Shown: piece by piece, positions 7,546 through 32,000 of the stretch | Position numbering within the stretch: the first letter of the stretch is position 1 | Layout: each line of letters starts with the position of its first letter | Assembly (NCBI RefSeq): GCF_000017845.1 | Contig: NC_010547.1 | Span: 90,001 to 122,000 of the forward strand | Reading direction: 5' to 3' | Source: Crocosphaera subtropica ATCC 51142 | GTDB taxonomy: Bacteria > Cyanobacteriota > Cyanobacteriia > Cyanobacteriales > Microcystaceae | DNA length: 32,000 nucleotides | Translations under genes and position numbers: made by a program | Notes under the pieces: model-generated | The model's input: the letters and a program-made list of their open reading frames with translations, nothing else | Databases searched by the model: none | What the model was told of the DNA's origin: nothing

Positions 7546-8361
7546 TTAACCCTGCCGACACCATAAAGCTACAATCAAAAACCCAAATAACTGAACTAAA
7601 ACAATACTAGGACCACTAGGTAGATCGATCGCACCAGAAATAACCATTCCCATTACCCCACTCAACGCACCCATACCAGCAGCAGTGGCTAAAAATGGGA
7701 CAAACTGCTGACAAATTAATCTGGCAGTTGCAGCAGGAATAACTAAAAAACCATTAACCAATAAAATACCAACAGCACGAATCGTTAGAGCGATCATAAT
7801 GGCTAAAAGCACGATAAAGAAATAACGATGGCTGCGAACAGGTACGCCTTTTACTACGGCTAAATCGCTGTTGAGGGTAAGTAATATTTGTTCTGGTAAA
7901 CTGATAATTATCCAGGCTAAAGTTACAGCTAAAAGTAATAACAATAAAATCAAATCTGTATTACTAATAGCGAGAATATCCCCAAACAAAATCGATAATA
8001 AATTACCCCGATATCCCTTTAAATAACTAAAACCAATTGTACCTAAAGCGATGGAACCTGATAGGGAAATACACAATACGGTATCGCTACCGAGATCAGT
8101 TCTATCAATTAAATAAATAACACCTAAACCAAAAGCAACAGTAAAACCCATCAACGTCCAAGTGGCAGGAAGGTTTAATAAAGCAGCTAAAACCACGCCT
8201 AGCATGGCCGAATGCCCCACGGTATCCCCAAATAGAGAAAGACGACGCAGGATTAAAAAACTGCCCAAAATTCCCCCTAAAATACCAAGCAGTACACCAC
8301 CTAGTATCGCCCGTTGCATAAAGGGTAAACTAAAAAGATTCAGGAAGTTTACTAGGTTCAT
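7546..8361 (-). CDS. znuB: Zinc ABC transporter permease (ABC-3 family)
   Basis: 271 aa polytopic membrane protein in an operon with the ATPase and the cluster-9 binding protein. Confidence 0.9.
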   Translation of the reverse strand: MNLVNFLNLFSLPFMQRAILGGVLLGILGGILGSFLILRRLSLFGDTVGHSAMLGVVLAALLNLPATWTLMGFTVAFGLGVIYLIDRTDLGSDTVLCISLSGSIALGTIGFSYLKGYRGNLLSILFGDILAISNTDLILLLLLLAVTLAWIIISLPEQILLTLNSDLAVVKGVPVRSHRYFFIVLLAIMIALTIRAVGILLVNGFLVIPAATARLICQQFVPFLATAAGMGALSGVMGMVISGAIDLPSGPSIVLVQLFGFLIVALWCRQG

Positions 8362-12065: not shown

Positions 12066-15000
12066 ATGAACACCGAACAGATGTCTCTATTCGGGTTAGG
12101 AGAATCCACTGTACCGACCCAGAAACCAAAGAAAACTTCTCGTCGACAAAAGCGTAAGAAACGTTCTTCCGATACAAATTCTTCAACCACCCAAGGCTCA
12201 TTATTCAGTGGCCTATCTCTGGCTAGTCCAGTGATTGAGTCAGGAACTTTACTAATGGTAGCCGAAAAGCTGCTTTCCTATCTGTCGATTAATCAGAAAA
12301 TAACTTCAAGTTTACTAAAACAGACCATGAACAATACCTTTGGCGGTACAGATAGCCAAGGGCGTTGGACTTGGAAGCAAGCCTACAATGCAGTAGAACT
12401 GTCTTTAGTGTTATGGGTAAGGAAATACAACGCAAAACTTCCTGATAATCCAAGGAAAGCGAGCGCAAAACTTATCGAGTTACAAACCCTGTTACCGACG
12501 CATACTCTACGCTCTGAAGAATCGGTAAAACTTCAACAGTTCAGTACCCCTTTACCTTTAGCGTATTTAGTGGGTGAAGCGGCTCAAATCACCTCTACAG
12601 ATGTGGTCTTAGAGCCAAGTGCAGGCACCGGACTACTCGCCATTTGGACTGAGATTAAAGGAGCATCGTTAATTCTCAATGAAATTAGCGAGGAGCGAGT
12701 CGACTGCCTAAAGCAAGGCTTTTCACACAAAGTCCATAGCTACAATGCTGAACAAATCGATAACTTGCTCCCAACTCAGCATAAACCGACTGTGGTAGTT
12801 ATGAACCCACCGTTTACCACTTATCTCCACAGCAAGAAGAAGGGTTGTAGTGCAGCTTTTGCTCACATTCGTTCAGCCCTGCACCGACTCAATCCCGGTG
12901 GAAGATTAGTCACACTCAGCTTAGATTCGTTCTCACCCAATAGTACAACATGGGGCGACGCGATCGCTGACCTACCCGGCAAAGTCGTCTTTAGTGTTGG
13001 TATCGAAGGTAAGACCTACTATAAGCATGGCACAACCATCGATACGCGCTTAACGGTAATCGATAAGGTTGACGACGCAGACTCTTACATTGTCGACAAA
13101 TGCTTAAGTCTCGATGAAATCGCTGACTTGATTGACACTAAAATTCCCCCTCGACAAGAGGTTCAAAAGCGTCAGTCCTCTGTGGTGGTTCCTATCACGA
13201 AACCGACTCAGAGCAAGAAGACAAGAAAAGTCAAAGAAGATACAAGGCCAGAAGCAAAGGTATCTTTCGATGATGTCATTACCGTTGATTACAAAGTAGT
13301 TGATTGGCGAGATGAGGGTGAGTATCTCAATGATGATGGGATTTATGAGCGTTATATGCCTCAAACCATCAATATCAAAGCAGCTAAAGTTCATCCAACT
13401 AAACTCGTTGAATCCGCAGCAATGGCTGCGATCGCACCACCCACACCAACCTACAAACCCAAGTTACCCAAAGCGGTGATTGAGCAAGGCTTACTTTCCG
13501 ATGCTCAATTAGAGAGCGTTATTTATGCAGGGAACAGCCATGAGCAATTCTTACCCGATTGGTTCATGTATGACGCTGACCATGACACTTTAGAACGAGT
13601 TCCTGAAGGAACCAAAGAAGCTAAGCATTACCGCAAAGCTTGGTTTAACGGAGACGGTACAGGGGTAGGGAAAGGACGCCAGTGTGCCGGGATTATTCTC
13701 GATAACTGGTTGAAAGGTCGCAGGAAAGCGGTATGGATTTCTAAGAGCAACGCTCTACTAGAAGATGCACGTCGTGATTGGAAAGCCCTTGGTGGTGATC
13801 CGACCCAAGTTGTCCCTTTGTCTAAATTCAAGCAAGGAGATCCCGTTGTTCTCAACGAAGGGATACTCTTCTTGACCTATGCCACACTCAGAAGTCCTGC
13901 AAAAGCCAACAAGTGTTCTCGCGTTGAGCAAATTGTACAGTGGCTTGGCGAAGATAGTGACAACGTGATTGTCTTCGATGAATCCCATGCCATGGCCAAT
14001 GCAGTAGCAGAATATGGCGAACGAGGACTGAAAGCAGCCTCTCAACAAGGACTAGCAGGGCTACGTCTTCAACGAGTCTTAGCAAATGCGAGGTTTGTCT
14101 TTGTATCAGCCACAGGCGCAACTAAGTTAGAAAATCTCAGTTACTTAGAACGGCTAGGTCTCTGGAACTCAGAGATTTTACCCTTTATCAATCGAGAAGA
14201 TTTCTTATCCCAAGTTGCAGAGGGTGGGATTGCTGCTTTAGAAGTCGTTGCCCGCGACCTTAAAGCAATGGGTCTCTACTTGGCTCGTAGTGTTAGTTTC
14301 GATGGTGTCGAATATGAGATCATTGAACACGAACTGAACGACGCTCAAGTGGCGATGTACAACCGTTATGCCGATGCTTATCAGATTATTTACCAGAATA
14401 TTGAGAAAGCTCTTGAAACTACGGGAATCAGCAGCAAATTCGGCAACACTAATGGCAGAGCAAAATCCTCGGTCTATTCTCGGTTTGAAAGTTGTAAACA
14501 ACGGTTCTTCGGTCATCTGATTACCTCGATTAAATGCCCGACGCTTATCAGGCAGATAGAAGCGGATATGAAAGAAGGTAAAGCAGCCGTCATTCAACTG
14601 ATTTCTACCGATGAGGCCCTCTTAAACAGACGACTCGACGAAATTCCAGTCAGTCAGTGGAATGATATCAACGTTGATATTACTCCACGAGAATACCTCT
14701 TTGACTATCTTATCAATGGGTTTCCTGTCCATCAGTATGAGAGCTTCACAGATGATAACGGAAATGAGCGTAGTCAAATCATGAAAGATGAAGAAGGTAA
14801 TCCTATACCCTGTCAAGAAGCATTGCGTCAAAGAGATGCTCTTATTGAAGAACTTTCCTTGTTTCCACCTTTGCCATCGGCATTAGACCAAATCATTAAC
14901 CATTTTGGTTATGAAGCAGTGGCTGAAGTAACGGGACGCTCTAAGCGAATTATCCGAGTCACGAAAGAGGGTAGCGATCGCATGACGGTCGATAAACGAT

Positions 15001-19478: not shown

Positions 19479-19688
19479 ATGCGTTATTCATCAAAATTTC
19501 TCAAAAAAGACCATATCGAATTAGCCGGGGTTGACCAACCTCACATTTCAGACTGGCTAATCCAAGAAGTCCGCACCGAAATTAAAGCAAAACTAAAGAA
19601 AACTTCAGTGACCAGCGAAGACAAATTCCAAGAAATTGTCACGGCAACGGTAGCAGAAATAATGCCCTTATGGGTCTACAACGACTAG
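19479..19688 (+). CDS. Hypothetical protein (69 aa)
   Basis: ORF at the canonical distance from the motif. Confidence 0.5.
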   Translation: MRYSSKFLKKDHIELAGVDQPHISDWLIQEVRTEIKAKLKKTSVTSEDKFQEIVTATVAEIMPLWVYND

Positions 19689-20107: not shown

Positions 20108-20683
20108 ATGGACGATCGCCTAATCCTAGAAATAAACGAAGACAATGCCAACGTTAACATTACAGAAAGTTACGCAGCAGCCTACATCAATGTGAATCGA
20201 CATACCATACGACTGAATCTCTCTACTGCTGATTTTGAAGTAGGGGCTATTGTCAGACAGGCTGGCCTCAATTCAACAATTATCGGGAGTTCAAAGATCG
20301 ATTTCTTCTTAGCAGATAGTGGGGCTTTACTCGTCGGGAATGGCGGCGATGACAATTTGCAAGTAGCGGGGAATGGAGCCGAAAATTGCATCATTCTCGG
20401 TGGAACGGGGAACGACACCATCAAAGCACTCTCCACAGCAAAAACGACTGTGCCTTCCTGTGTTCTTAGCGGGGGTGAAGGCAGTGATACTTTTTTCGCA
20501 GTTGGCATGAAAATATTGGTGACGGATTTCGAGAAAGGCGATCGCATTTCCATTGGAGACCCTAACGTAAAGCAATTTATCAGCGACCAGGGCTTAGTAA
20601 TCAAGACTGAAAAAACTGAGGCTTTAATTCTAGACAGATTCGAGCCTATTCCTTTCGTAGAGGGTAATTATTTAGGTTTCTAG
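20108..20683 (+). CDS. RTX-like (GGxGxD repeat) calcium-binding-type protein, paralog 1
   Basis: GNGGDDNLQ, GGTGNDTIK and GGEGSDTFF nonapeptide-like repeats. The C-terminal LVTDFEKGD block is shared with the next gene. Confidence 0.65.
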   Translation: MDDRLILEINEDNANVNITESYAAAYINVNRHTIRLNLSTADFEVGAIVRQAGLNSTIIGSSKIDFFLADSGALLVGNGGDDNLQVAGNGAENCIILGGTGNDTIKALSTAKTTVPSCVLSGGEGSDTFFAVGMKILVTDFEKGDRISIGDPNVKQFISDQGLVIKTEKTEALILDRFEPIPFVEGNYLGF

Positions 20684-20691
20684 GTTAAGAG

Positions 20692-20699
20692 GCTAGCGC
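20692..20699 (+). promoter_or_regulatory. GCTAGCGC island motif, copy 5
   Basis: 47 nt before the ATG at 20747. Confidence 0.55.
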
Positions 20700-20746
20700 T
20701 ATTTGGTTTGAGAGATTCTCTCATGTAAAACAATCTACAAACCAAT

Positions 20747-21319
20747 ATGGATCTACAGATTACAACCTTACAACCTGCCGTCTTCACTCCGGTTCTCGGA
20801 ACTTGGAACACAATTACAGCCGATGCCAGAGGACTAACGAGCTACTACGATTTTGGAAACGCCGATGTTGGTATATCCACGCGAGTTCCTAACGCGGGTC
20901 GATTCTCCTACTTAGGCGGAAGTAACACCAGAGACTATCTATCGGGACAAGAGGGGTCGTGGATTCTCGGTCGTGATGGCGATGATGTCCTCACTACTTA
21001 TTCGGCACCTGATGATAGTCCGATTCGTTCTGCCTTATACGGTGGAGATGGCACCGACCAACTTACTACACTATTTACCGATGCTGTTTTCACTGGTGGT
21101 ACTGGACAAGACCAGTTCAGAGTCTTCAACGCCGATGTTGTAATCACTGACTTCACCGATAACGAAGATAGCCTCTGGGTATTGGGTAGTAACCAAGTAT
21201 CACAGATTCAAACTGATTTCGGGCTAATACTAGATAATGGAGCTTCCCAGATTCAACTCTTAGGAGTTACTAATTACTTGAACCAAGTTCAAAGCGGAGG
21301 AACCTCTGTATTTGTCTAA
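20747..21319 (+). CDS. RTX-like (GGxGxD repeat) calcium-binding-type protein, paralog 2
   Basis: GRDGDDVLT, GGDGTDQLT and GGTGQDQFR repeats, plus the VITDFTDNED block. Confidence 0.65.
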   Translation: MDLQITTLQPAVFTPVLGTWNTITADARGLTSYYDFGNADVGISTRVPNAGRFSYLGGSNTRDYLSGQEGSWILGRDGDDVLTTYSAPDDSPIRSALYGGDGTDQLTTLFTDAVFTGGTGQDQFRVFNADVVITDFTDNEDSLWVLGSNQVSQIQTDFGLILDNGASQIQLLGVTNYLNQVQSGGTSVFV

Positions 21320-22680: not shown

Positions 22681-23043
22681 ATGCCAACAATTAGCCTAGA
22701 AAACTTCATCATTATTTCTCTTGCAGATACGGCAAGACGTGCGGGATTCGGAGATATGCCGGCGACCACAGACTATGAAAAAAAGAAAATATCACTTCAA
22801 GAGCGTATTATTCTAAAACGTTTACTTGATATGGTCAAAGATCGAAATCCTAGTAAAAACGTAGAAATTAATGAATTGTACCTCTCTCCACAATTTACGA
22901 TGCTGATTCTTGACTCCGTAAATCAGGTAGAAGGTTATAGCAACGATGTTTATCCTTGCCAGCATCTTGTTGAGTGCGAGAATCGACTGACTTTTCGGGG
23001 AAATATACAGGATATATATGATCAGGTTATCAACCATCTATAA
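22681..23043 (+). CDS. Hypothetical protein (120 aa)
   Basis: Clean ORF with a strong SD. Confidence 0.55.
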   Translation: MPTISLENFIIISLADTARRAGFGDMPATTDYEKKKISLQERIILKRLLDMVKDRNPSKNVEINELYLSPQFTMLILDSVNQVEGYSNDVYPCQHLVECENRLTFRGNIQDIYDQVINHL

Positions 23044-23068
23044 TCCTTATTGTACCTGGGTTTTCACT

Positions 23069-23118
23069 ATCCGCAGCAACTCCCATTTTGGTTATAGTTT
23101 ATGGACTCTGCTGCGGAT
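23069..23118. promoter_or_regulatory. IR-N30 element E1: ATCCGCAGCA-N30-TGCTGCGGAT with TATAGT at spacer positions 15-20
   Basis: 10-bp perfect inverted arms. Upstream of the 23247 gene and nrdB, which have no terminator between them. Confidence 0.6.
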
Positions 23119-23191
23119 CGCATACTAGCATTTTCTCCTCCGACATTTACCATAATGTACTTAAGTCTTCTAGTTTGGTAACAGTATCTAT

Positions 23192-23199
23192 CGCTAGCG
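23192..23199 (+). promoter_or_regulatory. GCTAGCGC island motif, copy 8
   Basis: 47 nt before the ATG at 23247. Confidence 0.55.
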
Positions 23200-23246
23200 C
23201 TCGTTAGGGGGAATAAATTGCCAAACGAGTAAAGGACTTTAAACAA

Positions 23247-23663
23247 ATGCCTAGAGAAGTTATCCATGACGTAGACCGCCCCGACATCAACGGTGTCAAG
23301 CCCAAGATGCAAGCGATCGCAGATAGTCTTCGTGAATCGCTGCCACCTCTGCCGTTTTCTTCTTTGAAATGCGATGACAACTTAATGTCATCAATTCATC
23401 TGAAAGCTAGTTTCAATGACCGAGCCGAGTGGTCACATGGGATTTTCGAGAACTCGCTGTACTTCATGGTTAGTATCCATCCCCAAAAAGGGAAACGGTA
23501 CTACCAAGAAGGTGAAAAGATCAGCATCGAAATCAACAACAAATCGTACAAAATTCCCACAAAGTTTAGAAAATACACGGGAACCCCGGAGAAGGCGATC
23601 GCCAAGATCGTCGAGTGGATTGAAAAAGCAAAGTCCGAATTAGAACAAAAGAACCAAGGCTAA
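23247..23663 (+). CDS. Hypothetical protein (138 aa), probably co-transcribed with nrdB
   Basis: Clean ORF. Neither a terminator nor the motif lies before nrdB, 48 nt downstream. Confidence 0.55.
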   Translation: MPREVIHDVDRPDINGVKPKMQAIADSLRESLPPLPFSSLKCDDNLMSSIHLKASFNDRAEWSHGIFENSLYFMVSIHPQKGKRYYQEGEKISIEINNKSYKIPTKFRKYTGTPEKAIAKIVEWIEKAKSELEQKNQG

Positions 23664-23711
23664 CACTTCTCAGAAAAAGTAAATTCACTGTACAAGTTAT
23701 CAGGAGCAACA

Positions 23712-24755
23712 ATGACCTTCACCGAAATAAAACCTAGTCCAATCTTCAACCCTACCGGAAAGGACAACAAAGAAAAGAGACACCTCTGGGGCGGTGATAC
23801 CACCAACGTTATCAACTTAAACGAAACCCGATACGGATGGGCACGAACAATTTACCAAACCATGAGGGAGGGGTACTGGATACCCCAGCGAACCGACCTG
23901 TCTCAAGACAAGCTTGACTACGTCAACCTGATTCCAGGTGAACGTAGAGCGTTGAAGGGCATCCTGAGTTATCTCAACTTCCTAGACTCGGTACAAGTCG
24001 CCAATATTCCCGAACTTAGTCGGTATATCACAGCGCCAGAAGCCAGGATGTGCCTTGCCGAGCAAACATCGCAAGAAGCGATGCACGGGGAGACTTATCA
24101 GTACATTACTGAGAGCATAATCCCAGAGAATGAACAACACGAAGTCTATGACTTCTGGAAAAAGGATCTTCTACTTAATGAACGCTGCGAGTTCATCGCA
24201 AGTTACTATCAAACACTTGCTGATAACCCTTGTGGCGAAACTTACTTCATGGCCCTAATTGGAGACTATCTCTTAGAAGGATTGCTATTTTATCAGGGGT
24301 TCTTGTTCTTCTACAACCTCGCCTCTAGCCAGAGGCTTGCGGGCTGTGCCAAGCTCATCAAACAAATCAACATGGATGAATTGACCCATGTGAGTCTGTA
24401 CCAAAAGCTTATCACAGAAGCTAAGACCAAGTTCTCTTACTCTGAGGATGAAATCACAGAGTTGTTCGTCAACACGGTTGAGAAGGAAATCGAGTGGACG
24501 AACCACATCTTTGATGGGCAAATCTTAGGTGTTAGCGAAGCGAGTACCGAAGCTTATACCAAGTACCTAGCCAACTTACGCCTGAAGGCAATCGGCATTT
24601 CTGCCATTTACCCCGAAGTAGAGAATCCTTATGCTCATTTAGACTGGGCTGACTTCAAAGGAATCGGGAAATCAAAGGCTGCTTTCTTTGAAACAGAGGT
24701 CACAGGTTACGCCCAACCTACTGCCGTAAAAGGATGGGAGAAACTCAGAGTCTGA
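23712..24755 (+). CDS. nrdB: Class Ia ribonucleotide reductase beta (R2) subunit
   Basis: Di-iron/tyrosyl signature EAMHGETYQY (His then Tyr at +4), EGLLFYQGF and MDELTHV ligand motifs. 347 aa. Confidence 0.9.
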   Translation: MTFTEIKPSPIFNPTGKDNKEKRHLWGGDTTNVINLNETRYGWARTIYQTMREGYWIPQRTDLSQDKLDYVNLIPGERRALKGILSYLNFLDSVQVANIPELSRYITAPEARMCLAEQTSQEAMHGETYQYITESIIPENEQHEVYDFWKKDLLLNERCEFIASYYQTLADNPCGETYFMALIGDYLLEGLLFYQGFLFFYNLASSQRLAGCAKLIKQINMDELTHVSLYQKLITEAKTKFSYSEDEITELFVNTVEKEIEWTNHIFDGQILGVSEASTEAYTKYLANLRLKAIGISAIYPEVENPYAHLDWADFKGIGKSKAAFFETEVTGYAQPTAVKGWEKLRV

Positions 24756-24769
24756 CTGGCTTAGAGGCT

Positions 24770-24817
24770 TCCGCAGCAAGTTCAATATTTCTTATAGAAA
24801 ATGGACTTTGCTGCGGA
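24770..24817. promoter_or_regulatory. IR-N30 element E2: TCCGCAGCAA...TTGCTGCGGA with TATAGA at spacer positions 15-20
   Basis: Starts 15 nt after the nrdB stop. Followed by a degenerate motif, ACTAGCGT, at 24829-24836. Confidence 0.55.
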
Positions 24818-25090
24818 TCTAATCGTGAACTAGCGTTTACTACAGGGACATTAAGCTTCGATAAAATTATTAGCAGCTATCCCTGTACGAGGTATCATAG
24901 ACTATCATGCGCGTTTTGCGTCTTGAGAGATCTCAACGACCTGACCAACTCAACTCCTTACGATGAGGGTGTTTACCAAGAGTTAGTGGCATTTAAGAAA
25001 GTCTCTGGCTGGAGCTTCCAGCAAGGGCGATCGCTTTCCTCACTCCGCTGGCGCTTGTTTTTGAAACGGTTTTAAGGAGACTAAGAAAAT

Positions 25091-25597
25091 ATGAAAATAG
25101 CTACAGGACTATTTGGGTATTTTGGCGCAGTCGCATTGTCCTTTGGGACGATATTACCAGGACTAGGCATCATCACCACTATCTTAGTGGCAATATGTCA
25201 ATTACCTTTTGGGATTGTCACTACCATAGAATTTGGGTTTCTTTTCCCACTTCTTGGGTTAATGGCAATCGCCTATCTATTCATGGGGCGGCTCTTATAC
25301 TTCCTTGGATTAGCGACTGCTGCAATGGGGTCTATCCTAGGAATTTACTATTTGTCTTTAGACAAAACATTGGACGAGTGGTTACTGAATGCACCTCTCC
25401 AACCCCTTGACCAACTTCACCCTTTGGAGGGTTTGCTAATGCAGGAGTTGGTGGTGGGAAGCGATAACACGGCTATGAGGATCGGGATTCACTTCCTAGT
25501 TGCCACGTTCTCCTGGATAGGAATTGGCTTATCGTCTCTGTTGATGGCGATATTTCTTGAAGAGGTAAACTCTTTAATGGGGTGGGAAAAGAACTGA
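25091..25597 (+). CDS. Hypothetical polytopic membrane protein (168 aa)
   Basis: 4-5 hydrophobic helices; SD AAGGAG 8 nt upstream. Confidence 0.6.
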   Translation: MKIATGLFGYFGAVALSFGTILPGLGIITTILVAICQLPFGIVTTIEFGFLFPLLGLMAIAYLFMGRLLYFLGLATAAMGSILGIYYLSLDKTLDEWLLNAPLQPLDQLHPLEGLLMQELVVGSDNTAMRIGIHFLVATFSWIGIGLSSLLMAIFLEEVNSLMGWEKN

Positions 25598-25723
25598 GCA
25601 TATTATTCTATTCCATGCAGGGATAGGAGATTCGGTAATGGTCTTGGGAACTCTCCTATGAATTGCAAGGGCATTGTTTCCCGATGCTTTTCCCAAAGAG
25701 CTTTTGGTGGTAATGTCTGTTCT

Positions 25724-25871
25724 TTTATGTCGCATCATCGTCAAAATCAAAGACGAAAAACTGGCTTAGTTAAGGGCATACTGAAACAGCTTCTATCTCA
25801 GTCTGGATAAGGATTAGAGTAATCCGCAGCAGGTACTATTTTTCTTATAAATAAACGTGGTTGCTGCGGGT
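25724..25871 (+). repeat. ~145-bp leader repeat, copy A (contains IR-N30: CCGCAGCA 25824-25831 / TGCTGCGG 25862-25869, TATAAA in the spacer)
   Basis: Alignable with copies B, C and D over the whole length. Confidence 0.7.
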
Positions 25872-25888
25872 GAAAATCGGGTCAAAAA

Positions 25889-25896
25889 GCTAGCGC
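25889..25896 (+). promoter_or_regulatory. GCTAGCGC island motif, copy 9
   Basis: 32 nt before the ATG at 25929; 19 nt after the IR right arm. Confidence 0.6.
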
Positions 25897-25928
25897 ATCT
25901 GAGGATGATATTCAAAACCATAACGCAC

Positions 25929-26141
25929 ATGAGCAACTACGAAAAACTTCGAGATTTAGTCAGTGAGTGCAATCGTCTAGAGGAAAATTTCTTCGACCGT
26001 CTAATTCAAGAAGACGTACCCCTAGAACTGAAAATGATTTGGAACGAGTGGTCGGCGGCGCGAACTAAGCATAGAACCTTTCAAGGTCAAATGCTTGGGT
26101 TCAACATCCTAGACACCGAAACTCACAACGAAGTCGAATAA
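25929..26141 (+). CDS. Small hypothetical protein (70 aa; MSNYEKLRDLVSECNRLEENFFDRLIQEDVPLELKMIWNEW...)
   Basis: Start set by motif spacing. The track GTG start at 25857 lies inside the IR right arm. A decayed paralog is at 26781-26948. Confidence 0.55.
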   Translation: MSNYEKLRDLVSECNRLEENFFDRLIQEDVPLELKMIWNEWSAARTKHRTFQGQMLGFNILDTETHNEVE

Positions 26142-26164
26142 TAAAGAGATATTCTTTTAGAAAT

Positions 26165-26190
26165 GAGAAGCTATGTCTTCTCTTTTTTTT
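26165..26190 (+). terminator. Rho-independent terminator
   Basis: GAGAAG-CTATGT-CTTCTC followed by T8. An identical hairpin recurs at 26980-27003. Confidence 0.85.
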
Positions 26191-26333
26191 GTCGAATCAA
26201 GGTCGAATTTCAGCACGAAAATTCTACCGAGTTTAGGGCATTATAAACAAAGCTGTATTTCAGTCAGACTAAGGATCATAAGTATCCGCAGCAACTGCTA
26301 TTTTTCTTATAAATAAACGTGGTTGCTGCGGGC
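26191..26333 (+). repeat. ~145-bp leader repeat, copy B (IR arms 26286-26293 / 26324-26331)
   Basis: Same element. The downstream motif is degenerate (GCTAGAGC at 26396). Confidence 0.7.
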
Positions 26334-26537
26334 GGACATTTAGCGGTACTCAAGTCAATCTAGTTATCCTCCAACACGAAAACTTAATAAAGACCGCTAG
26401 AGCTTTTTCGGAGGATGTATTCTAGACAAACATCATCCCTTACCTTTGCCGATTGTAGTTTTCAGAATGCTCCGAACTGGGAACCGAAGACCAAGGGAAT
26501 GCCAAACGTAGGAGAGGTAGCTCAGAGCAGCTACTTA

Positions 26538-26572
26538 GGGAAGCCAAGTCCAATGCTTCCCTCTATTTTTTT
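26538..26572 (+). terminator. Rho-independent terminator
   Basis: GGGAAGC-N10-GCTTCCC followed by TCTATTTTTTT. Confidence 0.75.
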
Positions 26573-26573
26573 G

Positions 26574-26715
26574 CCAAATCAAGGTCAAATTTCAGCACGA
26601 AAATACCGTTAAGTTTAGGGCATTATGAACAAAGCTCTATTCTAGTCTGGATAAGGATTATAGCCATCCGCAGCAACTACTATTTTTCTTATAAATAAAC
26701 GTGGTTGCTGCGGGT
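26574..26715 (+). repeat. ~145-bp leader repeat, copy C (IR arms 26668-26675 / 26706-26713)
   Basis: Same element. The downstream motif is degenerate (GCTACCGC at 26732). Confidence 0.7.
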
Positions 26716-26780
26716 AAACTTCGGGCTTTAAGCTACCGCTTAGAATGAAGATGTTTACACCCTAATAGTAAGTAGAACAA

Positions 26781-26948
26781 ATAAGTCAATACGAGAAATT
26801 GAGAGAATTAGATGAGGAGAATAGTCAGCGAGAAAAAGAATTTTACATCCGTCTGATTCAAGACGATGTTCCTGTAGAACTTAAAATGCTCTGAAACAAA
26901 TGGGCTAACGCACGAAGGGAATATCATGATCTCAATTTAAAATACTAA
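26781..26948 (+). pseudogene. Decayed paralog of the 25929 small gene (start ATG to ATA; Trp TGG to TGA at 26892)
   Basis: The frame reads ISQYEKLRELDEENSQREKEFYIRLIQDDVPVELKML*NKWANARREYHDLNLKY*, parallel to MSNYEKLRDL...LIQEDVPLELKMIWNEW. Confidence 0.65.
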
Positions 26949-26979
26949 AAACTCTTCCCTAAGATAAACCTCCCAAAAA

Positions 26980-27003
26980 GAGAAGCTATGTCTTCTCTTT
27001 TTT
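26980..27003 (+). terminator. Rho-independent terminator
   Basis: GAGAAG-CTATGT-CTTCTC followed by TTTTTT. Confidence 0.8.
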
Positions 27004-27148
27004 CTGTTGAATCATCGACGAAATAGAACACGAAAATACCGTTAAGTTTAGGGCATAATGAAACAGCCTCTATCTCTGTCTGGATAAAGATTATAGCCAT
27101 CCGCAGCAACTACTATTTTTCTTATAAATAAACGTGGTTGCTGCGGGT
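27004..27148 (+). repeat. ~145-bp leader repeat, copy D (IR arms 27101-27108 / 27139-27146), upstream of nrdA
   Basis: Same element. Confidence 0.7.
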
Positions 27149-27166
27149 CTAAATCATAAGTCGGAA

Positions 27167-27174
27167 GCTAGCGC
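27167..27174 (+). promoter_or_regulatory. GCTAGCGC island motif, copy 10
   Basis: 34 nt before the ATG at 27209; 20 nt after the IR right arm. Confidence 0.6.
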
Positions 27175-27208
27175 TACCCAATCTGAAAATCAACTAATCT
27201 TAGAACTT

Positions 27209-28066
27209 ATGTCACCATCTGTAATCAAACGAGATGGCTCAGTTGCCAACCTCGATTTAAACGAGATCCGAGACGCGATCGCCTATGCCGTCGAAGGCTA
27301 CCCCTTGAATTCTCTGGAATTAGAATCAAGAGTTAATCTCCAACTTAATCAGCCTCGGACAACTAAGTTTATCCAAGAAACCTTAGTCAATACGGCTGTG
27401 CAATTAGCCACGCCGAAAGACCCGGAATGGCTCAACGTCGCAGGACGTCTCCATATCTGGAATTGGTCGCATGAAGTCATTGCCAAGCGAGGATACGGTT
27501 ATGGCCACTATGATGTTTTTGCTGATGAAAACTTGTTCTCTAAGTACACGAATCGACTGAAAGTATATAGCCAAGCTGACTTACAAGAAGCAGTGACCTG
27601 GATTGAACCCGAGTTGGACAAAGTATTTGACCATGCAGGAGCAACTCTCCTGACACAACGCTATTTAAGTGAAGATGAACTAATTCAAGAGGTCTTCTTA
27701 GTGACCGCTTTGGTATTAGCGATTCCAGAGCGAATGGACGAGCGATTGTCTTATGCCAGAGATTTCTACATGGCGATCGCTAATAGAAAGATTTCTTTAG
27801 CCACACCTATCTTAGCCAATCTTCGCTTTGAGGGTGGTTCTGGAACCAGTTGCTTTATCTTGTCAGTAGAGGACTCCATTGACTCTATCTTTGACAATGT
27901 AAAGAACACGGCACGGATTTCCCAGGAAGGCGGTGGCGTTGGGGTCAACCTCAGTCGAATCCGAGCAGTAGGCAGTTGGGTTCGCAATAAACCGAATGTC
28001 AGTGGCGGGCTGATGTCGTGGATTCGGATTTTGAATGATACGGCGATCGCAGTCAATCAAGGAGGT
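27209..28066 (+). CDS. nrdA: Class Ia ribonucleotide reductase alpha (R1) subunit, exon 1
   Basis: MSPSVIKRDGS start, GTSCFIL (Cys225-equivalent), GGGVGVNLSRIRA, ends ..AVNQGG. The track GTG at 27134 lies inside the IR arm. Confidence 0.85.
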
Positions 28067-28330
28067 TGAACTTTAGCCTCGGTATGCAGTAATGCCTACA
28101 AAAATAAACTCCTCTAATTGCTGGAAACTCTTGAAAGAGACAATCAGCAGCGAAGCCAGAGTAATCTGGAACGTTCATCGACTATCGCGCAAGCGAGTAC
28201 CCTAGAAGCGTCTGCTAGGGGAAATGGGGAGCTTCCCACCGGGAAGAAGATATAGTCAGTTCTTTGTGGTGACGCAAAGCAGTTCATAAGAGAACGGGGT
28301 AGAGAGTGGCGTCTCTACCTGAACATCAAG
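28067..28330 (+). ncRNA. Group I self-splicing intron (ORF-less, 264 nt) interrupting nrdA
   Basis: 5' exon ends in U. P1 pairs exon GAGGU (28062-28066) with intron GCCUC (28076-28080), including the U-G wobble. P7 pairs GACUA (28180-28184) with UAGUC (28253-28257), preceded by the core AAGAUAUAGUC. The last intron base is G at 28330. Exons join in frame to QGG-RRAGAVTV. Confidence 0.8.
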
Positions 28331-30162: not shown

Positions 30163-30447
30163 CTCATCGAATATGTATGGAACCTTTCAATAATGAGGGT
30201 TAAGCTTTTATTTAGCAAGTCCTAATTATGGAACTGGGATTGCATGATGAGGTATTCGTTGCCAATCTCCTGATTCTAAGAGTTCGGCGAGTCCAACTTC
30301 TAGTTGTTGGAAGGCTTGTGCAGTTTTGTTGGTCTTTTGCTCCATGAGGTCTAGGAAAATTTTTTGCTTTAGATCAGCGCGAAGCGCAACAATATCACCG
30401 AAGATGCTACTCTTGAAAATAATAAAGATTATGAAAAAATAAAAATA

Positions 30448-31086
30448 ATGATTATTGGATTAGTCAACCAAAAAGGAGGGTGTGGCAAAAGCACCACAGC
30501 AGCACATTTTGCCTATTGGCTTTCCATTTCTGGGTCTGTTATTTTAATTGATGCTGATTCTCAACAATCAAGTTCAACTTGGATATCTCGATTAGAATCA
30601 GTGAAAATTCCTACTCAAGCGATTTTAGACCCTGAGCAATTATTTGAGACCATTGATACAATTTCAGATAAATATGATTCTATTGTTGTTGATGGTCCAG
30701 CCGGATTAAGTGAAGTTACAAAATCGATTTTAGATGTCGTTGATCTCGCTTTAGTGCCATGTCAACCATCGGGGCTAGACCTTAGTAGTAGTAGTAAAAT
30801 TCTTCAATTACTACGTCATCGACAAAAAGTTAGAAGAGGATTACCTAAAACTGGATTATTTCTGAGTCGAGCCGTCAAGGGAACTTTATTACTCAAAGAA
30901 GCTACACAAGCATTAGGGGTTGATCCTCGATTTCCTTTACTCAAATCTATTATTTATCAAAGACAATGTATTGCCGATGCTCCTATTCAACAAAAGACTG
31001 TTTTTGGATTAAGTAGCTCAGCCGCTAAATCAGCAAGTACCGATTATCAAAATCTATTCCAGGAGGCTTTGAAAATCCTTGACTAA
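30448..31086 (+). CDS. parA: ParA/Soj-family partition ATPase (small plasmid type)
   Basis: Deviant Walker A NQKGGCGKST; DADSQQS; 212 aa. Confidence 0.88.
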   Translation: MIIGLVNQKGGCGKSTTAAHFAYWLSISGSVILIDADSQQSSSTWISRLESVKIPTQAILDPEQLFETIDTISDKYDSIVVDGPAGLSEVTKSILDVVDLALVPCQPSGLDLSSSSKILQLLRHRQKVRRGLPKTGLFLSRAVKGTLLLKEATQALGVDPRFPLLKSIIYQRQCIADAPIQQKTVFGLSSSAAKSASTDYQNLFQEALKILD

Positions 31087-31105
31087 GACACAACATAGAC
31101 GGTCA

Positions 31106-32000
31106 GTGAGTGACTATTTATCTACATTACCAACTGAGCCTGAAACTGATTTACCCATTGAATTAATTTCTCTTGAAACCTCACAACCAAGACGTTATTT
31201 TGACCCAGAGAAGTTAGAACAACTAGCCGACTCTATCAGAAAATTTGGCATTATTGAACCCCTATTAGTCAGACAAAAAGGGTCTAGTTATTTCTTAGTT
31301 GCAGGAGAACGTCGCTACCGTGCAGCGAAAATGGCTGAACTGAAAACGGTACCCGTTGTTGTGAGAGAGTTATCTGATGAAGAAGCCTTGGCTGTAGCTC
31401 TGGTAGAGAACTTAGTTCGAGAAGACCTGAATCCTGTTGAGGAAACAGAGGGAATTCTTTGTTTACTGGCATTAGAGTTACAAATAAGTGTAGAAGAAGT
31501 CAAATCTTTATTGTATCGATTGGACAATGAGCAAAAGGGAAAAGCTACCAATAACGTTATTGGTAGCGAAAAACAAGCTCAGATTAAAAGCGTCTTTGAA
31601 GGCTTAGGACAAAGCTGGCAATCTTTTGTTAATAACCGGCTACCCTTGTTAAAATTACCGAATCGTATCCTCGAAGAAATTAGAAAAGGAACTATTGCTT
31701 ACACCAAAGCTAAAGCCATTAGTACCCTAAAAAACGAAGACCAGCAAAAAATATTGTTAGATGAGGCTATTGCCCAGGGTCTTTCTTTGACTGAGATTAA
31801 GCAGAGGATTAAGACGTTAAAAGAACAGCAACATAATAATAATGATGATGATGAAGAAAACTTGTTTAAACAACAGGTAAATAAAACGAATCTGTTGTTG
31901 AAAAAAGCTAAGCCTTTAAAAAATACTCGTCAACAAAAAAAATTGTTGAGGTTGCTCTCAGAAATTGAAACATTATTAACTAACACCGAAATATCTAAAG
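31106..32000 (+). CDS. parB: ParB-family partition protein, partial (runs off window)
   Basis: Frame is open from GTG at 31106 to the window end. ParB/Srx N-domain LPIELISLETSQPRRYFD, VAGERRYRAAKMA, ALVENLVREDLNPVEE. Not in the track because no stop is in the window. Confidence 0.8.
   Translation, partial: MSDYLSTLPTEPETDLPIELISLETSQPRRYFDPEKLEQLADSIRKFGIIEPLLVRQKGSSYFLVAGERRYRAAKMAELKTVPVVVRELSDEEALAVALVENLVREDLNPVEETEGILCLLALELQISVEEVKSLLYRLDNEQKGKATNNVIGSEKQAQIKSVFEGLGQSWQSFVNNRLPLLKLPNRILEEIRKGTIAYTKAKAISTLKNEDQQKILLDEAIAQGLSLTEIKQRIKTLKEQQHNNNDDDEENLFKQQVNKTNLLLKKAKPLKNTRQQKKLLRLLSEIETLLTNTEISK

What the first reader, a model, noticed from the sequence alone, without database searches (positions are those of the whole stretch)
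23069..27148. Six copies of a fixed-geometry inverted repeat, CCGCAGCA-N30-TGCTGCGG, enclosing a -10-like hexamer and preceding both RNR transcription units
CCGCAGCA and its complement TGCTGCGG occur six times as pairs: 23071/23109, 24771/24809, 25824/25862, 26286/26324, 26668/26706 and 27101/27139. The gap is exactly 30 nt in all six, even though the spacer sequence has diverged between E1, E2 and copies A-D. In every copy, spacer positions 15-20 read TATAGT, TATAGA or TATAAA, preceded by a conserved ATTT..TT tract.

If that hexamer is a -10 box, the left arm covers the -35 position and the right arm covers the transcription start. That is the layout expected of a repressor-occluded promoter.

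The elements sit in front of the 23247 gene plus nrdB, nrdA, a small gene and its pseudogene copy, and two units with no clear ORF. They may define an island-specific regulon centred on dNTP synthesis. The site does not resemble NrdR boxes or any operator I recognise.

Alternative readings are an RNA or ssDNA hairpin (10-12 bp stem, 26-30 nt loop), such as a single-strand promoter or a processing site.
Basis: partly seen in the sequence, partly recalled or inferred. Interest (0 to 1): 0.72.

Follow-up and report, generated by a model that had tools for sequence, protein, structure and literature searches.

The report
Conserved split palindrome before replicon genes
A 46-base split palindrome with an AT-rich, promoter-like centre is repeated between genes on the linear chromosome of the cyanobacterium Cyanothece 51142 and its closest relatives; it is strongly conserved and most likely a portable promoter/operator cassette, but nobody has tested what it does.

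Summary
In detail: six exact CCGCAGCA-N30-TGCTGCGG elements, none expected by chance. NrdB identity places the window on the Cyanothece (Crocosphaera subtropica) ATCC 51142 linear chromosome.

The family has 46 copies: 6 here and 40 in Crocosphaera chwakensis CCY0110, Cyanothece BG0011 and strain SU3. It was not found in viral contigs, metagenome contigs or PLSDB plasmids. Spacing is 30 nt in 45 of 46 copies and both arms are exact in 42 of 46. By contrast, nrdB third-codon positions are only 69-82% identical and the flanking intergenic DNA is unalignable.

All copies are intergenic. About two-thirds point toward a gene start 35-96 nt away. The element also precedes clamp-loader, conjugative coupling-protein, TPR and orphan genes, so it is not an RNR regulon.

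There is no covariation, and pairing next to the arms is at chance level. That argues for sequence-specific recognition more than for a hairpin. There is no Rfam, NrdR, parS or attC match.

Best model (confidence about 0.45): a promoter bracketed by a dyad operator. The copies also act as recombination points for gene cassettes, as the PeSL elements of T4-type phages do.

A second motif, GCTAGCGC, lies about 41 nt upstream of most start codons in this module and is unexplained.

The parts
23071..23116 (+). Palindromic element E1. It starts 27 nt after the stop of the 120-aa ORF and ends 130 nt before the ATG of the 138-aa gene that precedes nrdB.
   Evidence: Exact match; covariance model 59.3 bits on + versus 32.2 on -; orthologous copies at L125:4865 and L129:3985.
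24771..24816 (+). Palindromic element E2. It starts 15 nt after the nrdB stop codon; the 168-aa ORF at 25091 lies downstream.
   Evidence: 67.2 bits; orthologous copies at the same place after nrdB in BG0011 (L125:2234) and CCY0110 (L129:7599).
25824..25869 (+). Palindromic element A. It ends 59 nt before the ATG at 25929 of a 70-aa orphan gene.
   Evidence: 67.3 bits; member of the 172-nt repeat D1.
26286..26331 (+). Palindromic element B, upstream of the 65-aa ORF at 26415-26612.
   Evidence: 68.9 bits; the unit is 91% identical to BG0011.
26668..26713 (+). Palindromic element C, upstream of a decayed copy of the 70-aa gene.
   Evidence: 73.1 bits; the pseudogene is read directly from the sequence.
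27101..27146 (+). Palindromic element D. It ends 62 nt before the nrdA ATG at 27209.
   Evidence: 73.3 bits; the orthologous copy L133:1439 lies 60 nt before the intron-less nrdA of CCY0110.
26161..26332 (+). Reference copy of the 172-nt repeat: terminator-like hairpin with T-run, about 95 nt of conserved spacer, then the palindrome. The other copies are at 25699-25870, 26543-26714 and 26976-27147.
   Evidence: family D1, 66-80% identity; terminator-like site at 26165-26182; 15-copy alignment across three genomes.
23041..23070 (+). Example of the 30-nt upstream flank that is conserved with the palindrome (family consensus tAac.cagtctggataagg.TTt.A.ccaT). It includes a weak -35-like TTnnAn hexamer 17 bp upstream of spacer TATTTT.
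   Evidence: Consensus of 44 copies.
23193..23200 (+). GCTAGCGC gene-start motif, 53 nt before the ATG of the 138-aa gene.
24830..24835 (+). CTAGCG motif (variant CTAGCGt), 13 nt after E2.
25889..25896 (+). GCTAGCGC motif, 20 nt after element A and 39 nt before the ATG at 25929.
27167..27174 (+). GCTAGCGC motif, 21 nt after element D and 41 nt before the nrdA ATG.

Best explanation
The element is a replicon-specific composite regulatory cassette.

Its AT-rich centre carries a host-type core promoter. The -10-like TATTTT sits at spacer positions 6-11. The start is predicted at the A residues of TTATA(A/G)A, and a weak TTnnAn -35 lies 17 bp upstream.

The invariant 8-bp arms would form the dyad-symmetric binding site of an unidentified regulator, together with a second symmetric pair 10 bp further in (C..T and A..G, usually CTAT/ATAG). 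Bound there, the regulator would cover roughly -26 to +20 and occlude RNA polymerase.

The many copies place replication, nucleotide-supply, transfer and orphan genes of this linear-chromosome or plasmid-like module under one control. Because the copies are homologous, they also serve as breakpoints for duplication, loss and exchange of the small gene cassettes between them.

Shown: the element's existence, its geometry, selection on arm sequence and spacing, its restricted distribution, its intergenic position, its orientation bias, and differences in cassette content between genomes.

Inferred: promoter activity, protein binding and repression.
For: 1. Selection on sequence and spacing. There are 46 copies; N30 holds in 45 and both arms are exact in 42. 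In the same genomes nrdB third-codon identity is only 69-82%, and the DNA next to E2 aligns at 47-50%, which is random level. The spacers differ while the arms do not, so gene conversion alone does not explain the pattern.

2. Sequence rather than pairing is conserved. No compensatory arm changes occur. The four positions next to each arm form Watson-Crick pairs in 58 of 168 cells, against 57.6 expected. All structure measures equal their shuffled controls.

3. A second invariant symmetric pair (C16/G37 and T19/A34 of alignment A1) lies one helical turn inside each arm. That fits same-face protein contacts.

4. Promoter-like features that the search pattern did not impose are conserved. At spacer positions 7 and 11, A and T are each present in at least 90% of copies (TATtTT). 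TT is at flank positions -10/-9 and A at -6.

5. Position. No copy lies inside a credible ORF. Seventeen copies have a co-oriented ORF start within 0-130 nt, typically 35-96 nt. In A-D the order is terminator, about 95 nt, palindrome, about 60 nt, ATG.

6. The element is restricted to a few contigs: 3 of CCY0110, 4 of BG0011 and 1 of SU3. Viral contigs gave nothing, and the metagenome scan gave one hit in a human-gut contig, which I take to be chance. PLSDB gave no match.

7. Cassette turnover. Gene content between and just downstream of the elements differs among the three genomes. A TPR gene is flanked by two elements in CCY0110 where the window has one. The 168-aa ORF cassette is present only in the window. 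The number of A-D-type units varies, and there is a duplicated gene with a pseudogene copy.

8. PeSLs provide a precedent for composite promoter plus stem-loop cassettes whose stem-loop overlaps or lies between -35 and -10 (PMC2839356).
Against: - No transcription start data and no identified binding protein. No regulator-like domain was found among the small ORFs of the window. The only DNA-binding domains seen in the module are an HTH_17/excisionase-like protein next to a PIN protein, and ParB.
- The -35 is weak. The consensus promoter scan did not call any of the six copies.
- About 30% of copies are flipped relative to neighbouring genes. Some abut the terminators of convergent genes. A face-to-face pair precedes the coupling-protein gene (L126:3240/3307).
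- Arm centres are 38 bp apart, about 3.6 helical turns, so they are not in phase for a simple dimer.
- Indel breakpoints lie 17-49 nt downstream of E1 rather than inside it.
- Most genes of the module start after GCTAGCGC without any palindrome. The palindrome is therefore not the module's general promoter.
Confidence: 0.45

Rival explanations
1. The element acts as a folded single strand. As an RNA hairpin it could work in read-through or leader transcripts as an insulator, attenuator, processing site or stability element. As a DNA hairpin or cruciform it could be recognised during replication or transfer. In this reading the invariant arms are the stem and the AT-rich part is a recognised loop.
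For: - All copies fold well on either strand. RNA folds give -19.8 to -25.6 kcal/mol with z-scores of -3.9 to -6.9; DNA folds give -9.1 to -14.3 kcal/mol.
- In several places the element occupies the slot right after a stop codon, 15-38 nt downstream. In neighbouring units that slot holds an intrinsic terminator.
- Flipped copies still sit in intergenic slots.
- One arm variant is a G-T wobble (L124:7458).
Against: - There is no covariation. Pairing beside the arms is at chance level, and the other arm variants break pairs.
- A strictly fixed 30-nt loop and an invariant stem sequence are not requirements of a simple hairpin.
- No T-run follows the stem on either strand, and the terminator scan does not list the elements.
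- A-D already have a canonical terminator about 95 nt upstream.
- No Rfam family matches, even at E<=1.
- A 20-30-nt loop makes cruciform extrusion unfavourable. This last point is established knowledge, not tested here.
Confidence: 0.2
2. The element is mainly a recombination or mobility site with no direct regulatory role. It could be the boundary of mobile gene cassettes, analogous to attC, or a small non-autonomous repeat (MITE/REP-like) that has spread within this replicon.
For: - Small orphan genes lie between successive copies, and cassette content differs between the three genomes.
- The hairpin layout is outer stem, unpaired 4x4 region, inner stem and loop. It loosely recalls the R box, unpaired spacer, L box and variable loop of attC.
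- Copies occur in both orientations.
- IS605-family TnpB genes and a group II intron lie in the same contigs.
Against: - The attC core sites RYYYAAC/GTTRRRY are absent from the arms (sequence).
- There are no consistent bulged bases and the length is fixed.
- No tyrosine recombinase domain was found in any ORF scanned in the window or the related loci.
- nrdA and nrdB are unlikely cassettes.
- There are no target-site duplications, and the 30-nt upstream flank is co-conserved.
- Observed breakpoints are near the element, not within it.
- No decayed copies exist: covariance-model scores are sharply bimodal. That is unusual for a selfish repeat.
Confidence: 0.15
3. The palindromes are dispersed loading or silencing sites for the module's own ParB protein, which is encoded 4 kb downstream. 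They would work like the KorB operators of IncP plasmids or like the multiple parS sites of chromosomes.
For: - parA (30448-31086) and a 313-aa parB (31079 to beyond the window end) close the module.
- All six window copies lie 3-7 kb upstream of parAB.
- No canonical parS was found that would otherwise account for ParB.
- KorB-type ParB proteins are known to bind palindromes scattered over a plasmid and to repress promoters (own knowledge).
Against: - Known parS and OB sites are contiguous 13-16-bp palindromes, not 8-bp arms 30 bp apart.
- Nothing ties ParB to this sequence.
- In CCY0110 and BG0011, copies also lie on contigs that carry other partition-like genes.
- The conserved asymmetric centre is unexplained by this model.
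Confidence: 0.07

Closest known systems
PeSLs (promoter-early stem-loops) of T4-type phages (Arbiol et al. 2010, PMC2839356; Comeau et al. 2014, PMC4122927)
   Same: Both are short composite motifs repeated in intergenic DNA. Both combine a host-type promoter with a sequence able to form a stem-loop; in PeSLs the stem-loop can lie between or overlap the -35 and -10 boxes. Both are concentrated in a variable region of small orphan genes. Both are associated with insertion, deletion and duplication of the flanked genes.
   Different: The host here is a cyanobacterial linear-chromosome or plasmid-like module, not a T4-type phage. The arms are an invariant specific 8-mer held exactly 30 bp apart and enclosing the promoter core, rather than a compact G/C-run hairpin beside it. 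The sigma-70 match is weak, whereas PeSLs have a consensus-strength match. About 30% of copies are inverted. Promoter and terminator activity were measured for PeSLs and not here.
Global operator networks of conjugative plasmids (KorA OA and KorB OB sites of IncP-1 RK2; the R388 repressor network). Own knowledge.
   Same: One palindromic site is repeated at many promoters of a single replicon. The sites overlap core promoter elements. The replicon encodes a ParB-family protein. The regulated genes cover replication, maintenance and transfer.
   Different: Kor operators are contiguous 12-13-bp palindromes. No binding protein is known here. The split 8+30+8 geometry with a second inner symmetric pair has no counterpart in those systems.
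Repeated regulatory motifs of mycobacteriophages (stoperators of cluster A; start-associated sequences SAS/ESAS of cluster K). Own knowledge.
   Same: These are dozens of copies of a short conserved motif confined to one mobile genome. They are intergenic, mostly in one orientation relative to transcription, and positioned relative to gene starts. ESAS are imperfect inverted repeats with a spacer. The GCTAGCGC motif noticed here behaves like a start-associated sequence.
   Different: Stoperators are 13-bp asymmetric sites. SAS lie 3-8 bp from the start codon and include the ribosome-binding site. Neither has the 46-bp split-palindrome form, and there is no sequence similarity.
NrdR operators of ribonucleotide reductase genes (Rodionov and Gelfand 2005). 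Own knowledge.
   Same: They lie upstream of nrd genes. They are two sites about three helical turns apart that overlap the promoter, with a total footprint of about 47 bp.
   Different: Each NrdR box is itself a 16-bp palindrome (acaCwAtATaTwGtgt). None is present in the window, even with 3 mismatches. The element here also precedes genes unrelated to nrd.

Membership tests
PeSL-type promoter/stem-loop cassette | Repeated intergenic motif able to form a stable stem-loop | tested here: met
   46 intergenic copies. Fold z-scores are -3.9 to -6.9.
PeSL-type promoter/stem-loop cassette | Contains a strong sigma-70 consensus promoter (-35, -10, AT-rich upstream region) | tested here: inconclusive
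   A conserved -10-like TATtTT and a weak TTnnAn lie 17 bp apart. The consensus scan calls none of the six window copies. Activity was not measured.
PeSL-type promoter/stem-loop cassette | Flanks orphan genes in a variable region and marks indel boundaries between close relatives | tested here: inconclusive
   Cassette content differs between the three genomes around the elements. The mapped breakpoints lie 17-49 nt outside E1 rather than within it.
PeSL-type promoter/stem-loop cassette | Resides in a T4-type phage genome | tested here: not met
   The host module carries parAB, dnaN, RNR genes and a helicase-methylase. Related contigs carry a TraG/TraD coupling protein, a DnaX-type clamp-loader subunit and topoisomerase III. 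There were no hits in viral contigs or phage records.
Repressor-occluded promoter (operator overlapping the core promoter) | Dyad-symmetric conserved half-sites at fixed spacing bracketing the -10 and start region | tested here: met
   Arms and inner C..T/A..G pairs are invariant, and N30 holds in 45 of 46 copies.
Repressor-occluded promoter (operator overlapping the core promoter) | A transcription start within or just downstream of the site, and a protein that binds it | not testable with these tools
   No transcript-end data or binding data were accessible. No candidate regulator was identified.
NrdR operator | Tandem 16-bp palindromic NrdR boxes (acaCwAtATaTwGtgt) upstream of nrd genes | tested here: not met
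   No match with up to 3 mismatches anywhere in the window.
Integron attC site | Core sites R''/R' (RYYYAAC / GTTRRRY), bulged bases in the L box, variable length, and an integron integrase nearby | tested here: not met
   The arms CCGCAGCA/TGCTGCGG do not fit the core sites. Length is fixed and the layout is symmetric. No integrase domain was found in any scanned ORF.
Intrinsic (Rho-independent) terminator | GC-rich hairpin with a short loop, followed by a T-run | tested here: not met
   The terminator scan does not list the elements. The flanks read ATC.../GTG... on one strand and ATGG.../AAGG... on the other. The loop is 20-30 nt.
Single-strand promoter of conjugative plasmids (Frpo type) | Long (about 300 nt) hairpin whose duplex stem reconstitutes the -35 and -10 boxes | tested here: not met
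   The element is 46 nt. The -10-like sequences lie in the unpaired or weakly paired centre, not in a duplex stem. The Frpo features are from own knowledge.
Genome-wide dispersed repeat (REP/REPIN/MITE) | Many copies across the chromosome, decayed copies, target-site duplications | tested here: not met
   In the two draft genomes that carry it, copies are confined to 3 and 4 contigs. No decayed copies were found and no duplicated flanks. The complete 51142 genome could not be scanned.
Known RNA family (Rfam 15) | Match to a curated covariance model | tested here: not met
   The only gathering-level hit in the window is the group I intron. There is no hit at E<=1 in 22900-27300.
ParB centromere/operator (parS, KorB OB) | Contiguous 13-16-bp palindrome bound by the replicon's ParB | tested here: inconclusive
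   No canonical parS was found. The element's form differs from known sites. Binding cannot be tested here.

The most novel reading that the evidence does not exclude
The split palindrome and the GCTAGCGC motif could together be the signals of a private gene-expression system of the Cyanothece linear-chromosome backbone. GCTAGCGC sits about 41 nt before most start codons of the module, often directly after a terminator T-run and without any sigma-70-like -10 at a fixed offset. Such a system might be a dedicated transcription factor, sigma-like protein or polymerase encoded among the many domain-less proteins of these contigs. It might use hairpin- or box-dependent promoters, as phage N4 does with hairpin promoters. 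In that case host-type promoter logic would not apply to this replicon.
Probability: 0.12. Interest if true: 0.8.

Novelty: new variant of a known kind. Interest (0 to 1): 0.5.

Why it matters
Cyanothece 51142 is a model nitrogen-fixing cyanobacterium. Its 430-kb linear chromosome was the first found in a photosynthetic bacterium, and how that replicon controls its genes is not known.

This element marks the plasmid-like backbone of that replicon: partition genes, a sliding clamp and ribonucleotide reductase here, plus clamp-loader and transfer genes in relatives. If it is a promoter/operator cassette, three things follow:
- It defines a replicon-wide regulon with a binding protein still to be found.
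- It offers a compact regulated promoter part for cyanobacterial engineering.
- It extends the idea of mobile regulatory cassettes that shuffle genes from T4-type phages to cellular secondary replicons.

The organism is culturable and has published transcriptome studies (not examined here), so the predictions are cheap to test.

Tried and rejected
- **Loose collection scan.** CCGCAGCA-N20-40-TGCTGCGG in viral contigs returned only single chance matches with variable gaps, so I moved to a stricter pattern.
- **Phage and plasmid databases.** BLAST gave no match.
- **Literature search for the arm sequences.** It returned only primer and tag noise. The same was true for GCTAGCGC.
- **G-U wobble asymmetry as evidence for a plus-strand RNA hairpin.** G-T cells numbered 39 against A-C 25. 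Shuffles gave 32.5 and 17.9, and Watson-Crick pairing was at chance. Rejected as evidence.
- **NrdR boxes, canonical parS and DnaA boxes.** None were present or enriched. TTATCCAGA in the upstream flank of A, C and D is noted but is not enriched overall.
- **The published predicted oriC of the linear chromosome, which 'contains a reverse repeat'.** Its DnaA boxes are not in the window.
- **Distant homologues of the 138-aa gene.** They lie in phage-like contigs that lack the element. One of those contigs has its own unrelated promoter-like hairpin repeat.
- **Unifying both motifs as '8-bp box, 4-5 nt, -10'.** TAnnnT is not enriched at any fixed offset after CTAGCGC. Rejected.
- **Search for a sigma factor, polymerase or regulator.** About 70 ORFs of the window and related loci were scanned. 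Nothing was found, and a 995-aa protein without domains has no PDB relative.
- **Fetching the NCBI record of the linear chromosome to extend the window.** Only short Logan contigs were returned.

Full report
**Observation.** The pattern CCGCAGCA-N30-TGCTGCGG occurs exactly six times in the window, at 23071, 24771, 25824, 26286, 26668 and 27101. None is expected from 100 dinucleotide-preserving shuffles. Twelve of the thirteen arm 8-mers in the window belong to these pairs. A covariance model built from 42 family members finds only these six copies in the window with filters off. The next hit has E=0.2.

**Context.** Positions 1-11.5 kb carry ordinary chromosomal genes: hemB, ArsR, a cation-efflux protein, CobW, WD40, Fur and ZnuABC. 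From 12 kb to the end lies a plasmid-like module:
- a 1472-aa methylase-helicase of the Strawberry-notch type
- a DnaN-like clamp
- a PIN/HTH_17 pair
- many domain-less small ORFs
- nrdB
- nrdA split by a group I intron (Rfam RF00028, 28057-28279)
- parA and a 313-aa parB that runs off the window

The NrdB protein is 100% identical to that of Crocosphaera subtropica (Cyanothece sp.) ATCC 51142, on a 429,701-bp record. I recognise that length as the strain's linear chromosome; published work describes it as a 430-kb linear element (PMC3187577). The same paper says this chromosome is syntenic only with Cyanothece CCY0110, which matches what follows.

**Family and distribution.** I scanned one genome per species for the arms plus the central TATA. 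Apart from two single hits that I take to be chance (Nocardia, Janthinobacterium), it returned only Crocosphaera chwakensis CCY0110 (3 contigs), Cyanothece sp. BG0011 (4 unitigs) and a 1.7-kb contig of unicellular cyanobacterium SU3. Viral contigs gave nothing. The metagenome collection gave one hit in a human-gut contig, which I take to be chance. PLSDB plasmids and phage records gave no match.

With the covariance model the family has 46 copies, 6 in the window and 40 in relatives. Scores are sharply bimodal: every copy scores at least 53 bits on its better strand, and nothing lies between E=1e-5 and E=1. The spacer is 30 nt in 45 of 46 copies; one copy has 31. Both arms are exact in 42 of 46, and one copy lacks the TATA. 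Within the retrieved loci, 82 of 92 arm 8-mers are in exact N30 pairs.

**Strength of selection.** The three genomes have diverged substantially. nrdB third-codon positions are 69-82% identical. The non-coding DNA after E2 aligns at 47-50%, which is random level. Spacers of paralogous and orthologous copies differ at many positions while the arms do not. Homogenisation by gene conversion therefore cannot by itself explain the invariant arms. Conservation extends beyond what my search pattern imposed:
- C and T at spacer positions 5 and 8, and A and G at 23 and 26, are invariant or nearly so.
- T at spacer positions 10, 11 and 14, and A at 20, are present in at least 90% of copies.
- A 30-nt upstream flank has the consensus tAac.cagtctggataagg.TTt.A.ccaT.

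**Structure or sequence?** Each copy folds stably as RNA or DNA on either strand, as any palindrome must. Comparison across 42 distinct copies gives no support for a selected helix. Percent paired, compensatory pairs and covariation score all equal their shuffled controls. The four positions adjoining each arm form Watson-Crick pairs in 58 of 168 cells, against 57.6 expected. The four arm variants comprise one G-T wobble and three disruptions, with no compensation. No Rfam family matches, even at E<=1. No T-run follows the stem on either strand, and the terminator scan does not list the elements.

An invariant sequence, an invariant spacing, and a second symmetric pair one helical turn inside each arm all point the same way. 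They favour recognition of specific base pairs by a protein over a requirement for pairing. A hairpin role is not excluded.

**Position and orientation.** No copy lies within a credible ORF. The conserved centre is asymmetric, with a 13-30 bit difference between strands, so each copy has an orientation. Seventeen copies have a co-oriented ORF start 0-130 nt downstream, typically 35-96 nt. Several begin 15-38 nt after the stop codon of the preceding gene.

The downstream genes include:
- the 138-aa gene and nrdB, nrdA, a 168-aa membrane-like ORF and small orphan genes in the window
- a DnaX/HolA clamp-loader operon, a TraG/TraD-type coupling protein, TPR proteins and other orphan genes in relatives

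The idea of a regulon centred on dNTP synthesis therefore fails. The element belongs to the backbone of the replicon. About 30% of copies are flipped relative to adjacent genes. Some sit next to the terminator of a convergent gene, and a face-to-face pair precedes the coupling-protein gene in two genomes.

**Promoter features.** Nine bases upstream, spacer 6-11 reads TATtTT. Its A at position 2 and T at position 6 are each conserved in at least 90% of copies, and it lies 17 bp after a weak TTnnAn hexamer in the flank. With that -10 the start would fall on the A residues of TTATA(A/G)A. The left arm would occupy about -26 to -19, the right arm about +13 to +20, and the dyad centre about -3.5.

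The left half of the centre (CTATTTTTCTTATA) is the best-conserved part after the arms, which fits this reading. The consensus promoter scan does not call any of the six copies because the -35 is weak. Weak -35 elements are common in cyanobacteria (own knowledge). In the 15-copy A-D subfamily, a further 100 nt upstream is conserved, directly after a terminator T-run. It offers a third candidate, TTTAGG-N18-TATTCT, which would place the whole palindrome in a 5' leader. Only transcript mapping can choose between these.

**Cassette turnover.** Gene content around the elements differs among the window, BG0011 and CCY0110:
- CCY0110 has a TPR gene flanked by two elements, plus three more ORFs, where the window has the single E1.
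- BG0011 has a 301-aa ORF at the same place.
- The 168-aa ORF between E2 and A is present only in the window.
- The number and order of A-D-type units differ.
- The window holds a gene plus its pseudogene in successive units, which share a 172-nt repeat.

The mapped breakpoints near E1 lie 17-49 nt downstream of the element, close to a CTAGCG motif, rather than inside it.

**A second signal.** GCTAGCGC is strand-specific. There are 77 CTAGCGC sites in 142 kb, against about 17 expected, and G precedes the motif in 52 of 53 gene-proximal copies. It lies 37-55 nt upstream of the ATG of ORFs throughout the module, most often 40-43 nt. This includes genes without a palindrome: the helicase, dnaN and the ORFs at 19479, 20747, 22060, 22681 and 29748. 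It is nearly absent from the chromosomal part of the window. It often follows a terminator T-run directly.

In 19 palindrome copies it lies 8-23 nt after the right arm. In about 7 copies a divergently oriented GCTAGCGC unit lies 27-70 nt from the left side. No TAnnnT is enriched at a fixed offset after it, so it does not look like part of a sigma-70-type promoter. I could not explain it.

It matters for the finding because the palindrome is an add-on placed upstream of a more general gene-start signal. It could be the promoter of those units, with GCTAGCGC in the leader. Or it could be an operator or insulator acting on a GCTAGCGC-type start.

**Explanation and rivals.** I commit to a composite promoter/operator cassette at 0.45. 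A host-type core promoter sits in the AT-rich centre. The invariant arms and inner pair would be the binding site of an unidentified regulator that would occlude it. The homologous copies double as recombination substrates that reshuffle the cassettes between them.

The rivals are:
- a functional RNA or single-strand DNA hairpin (0.20)
- a recombination or mobility site without a regulatory role (0.15)
- ParB loading or silencing sites (0.07)

The remaining probability is unassigned. Tests of NrdR, attC, intrinsic-terminator, Frpo and REP/MITE membership were negative.

**Comparison with what is known.** The closest described system is the PeSL of T4-type phages. PeSLs are repeated promoter plus stem-loop cassettes. 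The stem-loop may lie between or overlap the -35 and -10 boxes, and the cassettes flank orphan genes and mediate modular shuffling (PMC2839356; PMC4122927). The present element differs in four ways: its host replicon, its invariant arms held 30 bp apart around the promoter core, its weak sigma-70 match, and its inverted copies. Plasmid global operator networks (KorA/KorB) and the stoperators and start-associated sequences of mycobacteriophages are functional analogues that I cite from my own knowledge.

One distant relative of the 138-aa gene lies on a 180-kb phage-like metagenomic contig. That contig carries its own unrelated promoter-like hairpin repeat, TTGTTGCACC-AGACGGG-N6-CCCGTCT-GGTCTATG, in about 19 copies. 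This suggests such cassettes arise repeatedly.

**Verdict.** The feature is real, strongly selected and confined to one replicon. I found no description of it. By form it is a new variant of a known kind of element, and its mechanism is untested. Interest is moderate at 0.5. It would rise if the palindrome and GCTAGCGC prove to be signals of a private expression system of the Cyanothece linear chromosome.

Noticed in passing
window + strand: 12027, 16532, 19441, 19697, 20693, 22022, 22640, 23194, 25890, 27168, 29706; also 60+ sites in L121-L137: The strand-specific 8-mer GCTAGCGC lies 37-55 nt (most often 40-43) upstream of the ATG of most ORFs of the plasmid-like module. It often follows a terminator T-run directly. 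There are 77 CTAGCGC sites in 142 kb against about 17 expected, and it is almost absent from the chromosomal 1-11.5 kb. No -10-like hexamer sits at a fixed offset. It behaves like a start-associated sequence of unknown mechanism.
   Followed up: partly
whole window: The window's NrdB is 100% identical to that of Crocosphaera subtropica (Cyanothece sp.) ATCC 51142, on a 429,701-bp record that I take to be the strain's linear chromosome. The species-representative genome scan did not return this genome.
   Followed up: partly
window 28057-28279 (intron about 28071-28330): A group I intron (Rfam RF00028, 82 bits) splits nrdA. The CCY0110 orthologue (L133:1545-3731, 728 aa) is continuous and lacks it.
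   Followed up: partly
window 30352-32000 versus L133:3864-5512: The parA-parB segment is 96% identical to CCY0110, while the rest of the syntenic module is 72-89% identical. This suggests recent exchange or much stronger constraint on the partition genes.
   Followed up: no
L141 (JGI metagenome 3300045125, 180.8-kb contig), e.g. 1003-1042, 7910-7949, 12291-12330: This phage-like contig encodes a 52%-identical homologue of the window's 138-aa protein. It carries about 19 intergenic copies of an unrelated promoter-like hairpin cassette, TTGTTGCACC-AGACGGG-N6-CCCGTCT-GGTCTATG, each followed by AAGGAG and an ATG.
   Followed up: no
window 25802-25810, 26646-26654, 27079-27087 (minus strand): [quoted passage not shown] Such near-matches are not enriched in the window overall (7 found, 8.3 expected).
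   Followed up: partly
L126:3240-3352 and L137:338-447: Two palindromic elements stand face to face about 20 nt apart, in the gap between a 300-aa ORF and, in CCY0110, the TraG/TraD-type coupling-protein gene. The arrangement is conserved in CCY0110 and BG0011.
   Followed up: no
L132:495, L132:1429, L136:1265, L127:1371 (downstream flanks): A subfamily of palindromes is followed by an A-run and GCAAyCCC(C)AAAA rather than by GCTAGCGC. Separately, at two BG0011 copies (L136:1492 and L136:1927) the A-run is followed by a short hairpin, which on the opposite strand reads as the terminator of a convergent gene.
   Followed up: partly
L121:2544-4454, L121:6416-7678, L122:4024-5256, L136:3541-4515: The related contigs carry a group II intron reverse transcriptase/maturase with an HNH domain and three IS605-family TnpB genes, so these replicon segments are rich in mobile elements.
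   Followed up: no
window 20108-21319: Two adjacent ORFs of about 190 aa show weak similarity to RTX-type calcium-binding repeats (NCBIfam E-values of about 1e-5, far below the family cut-offs).
   Followed up: no
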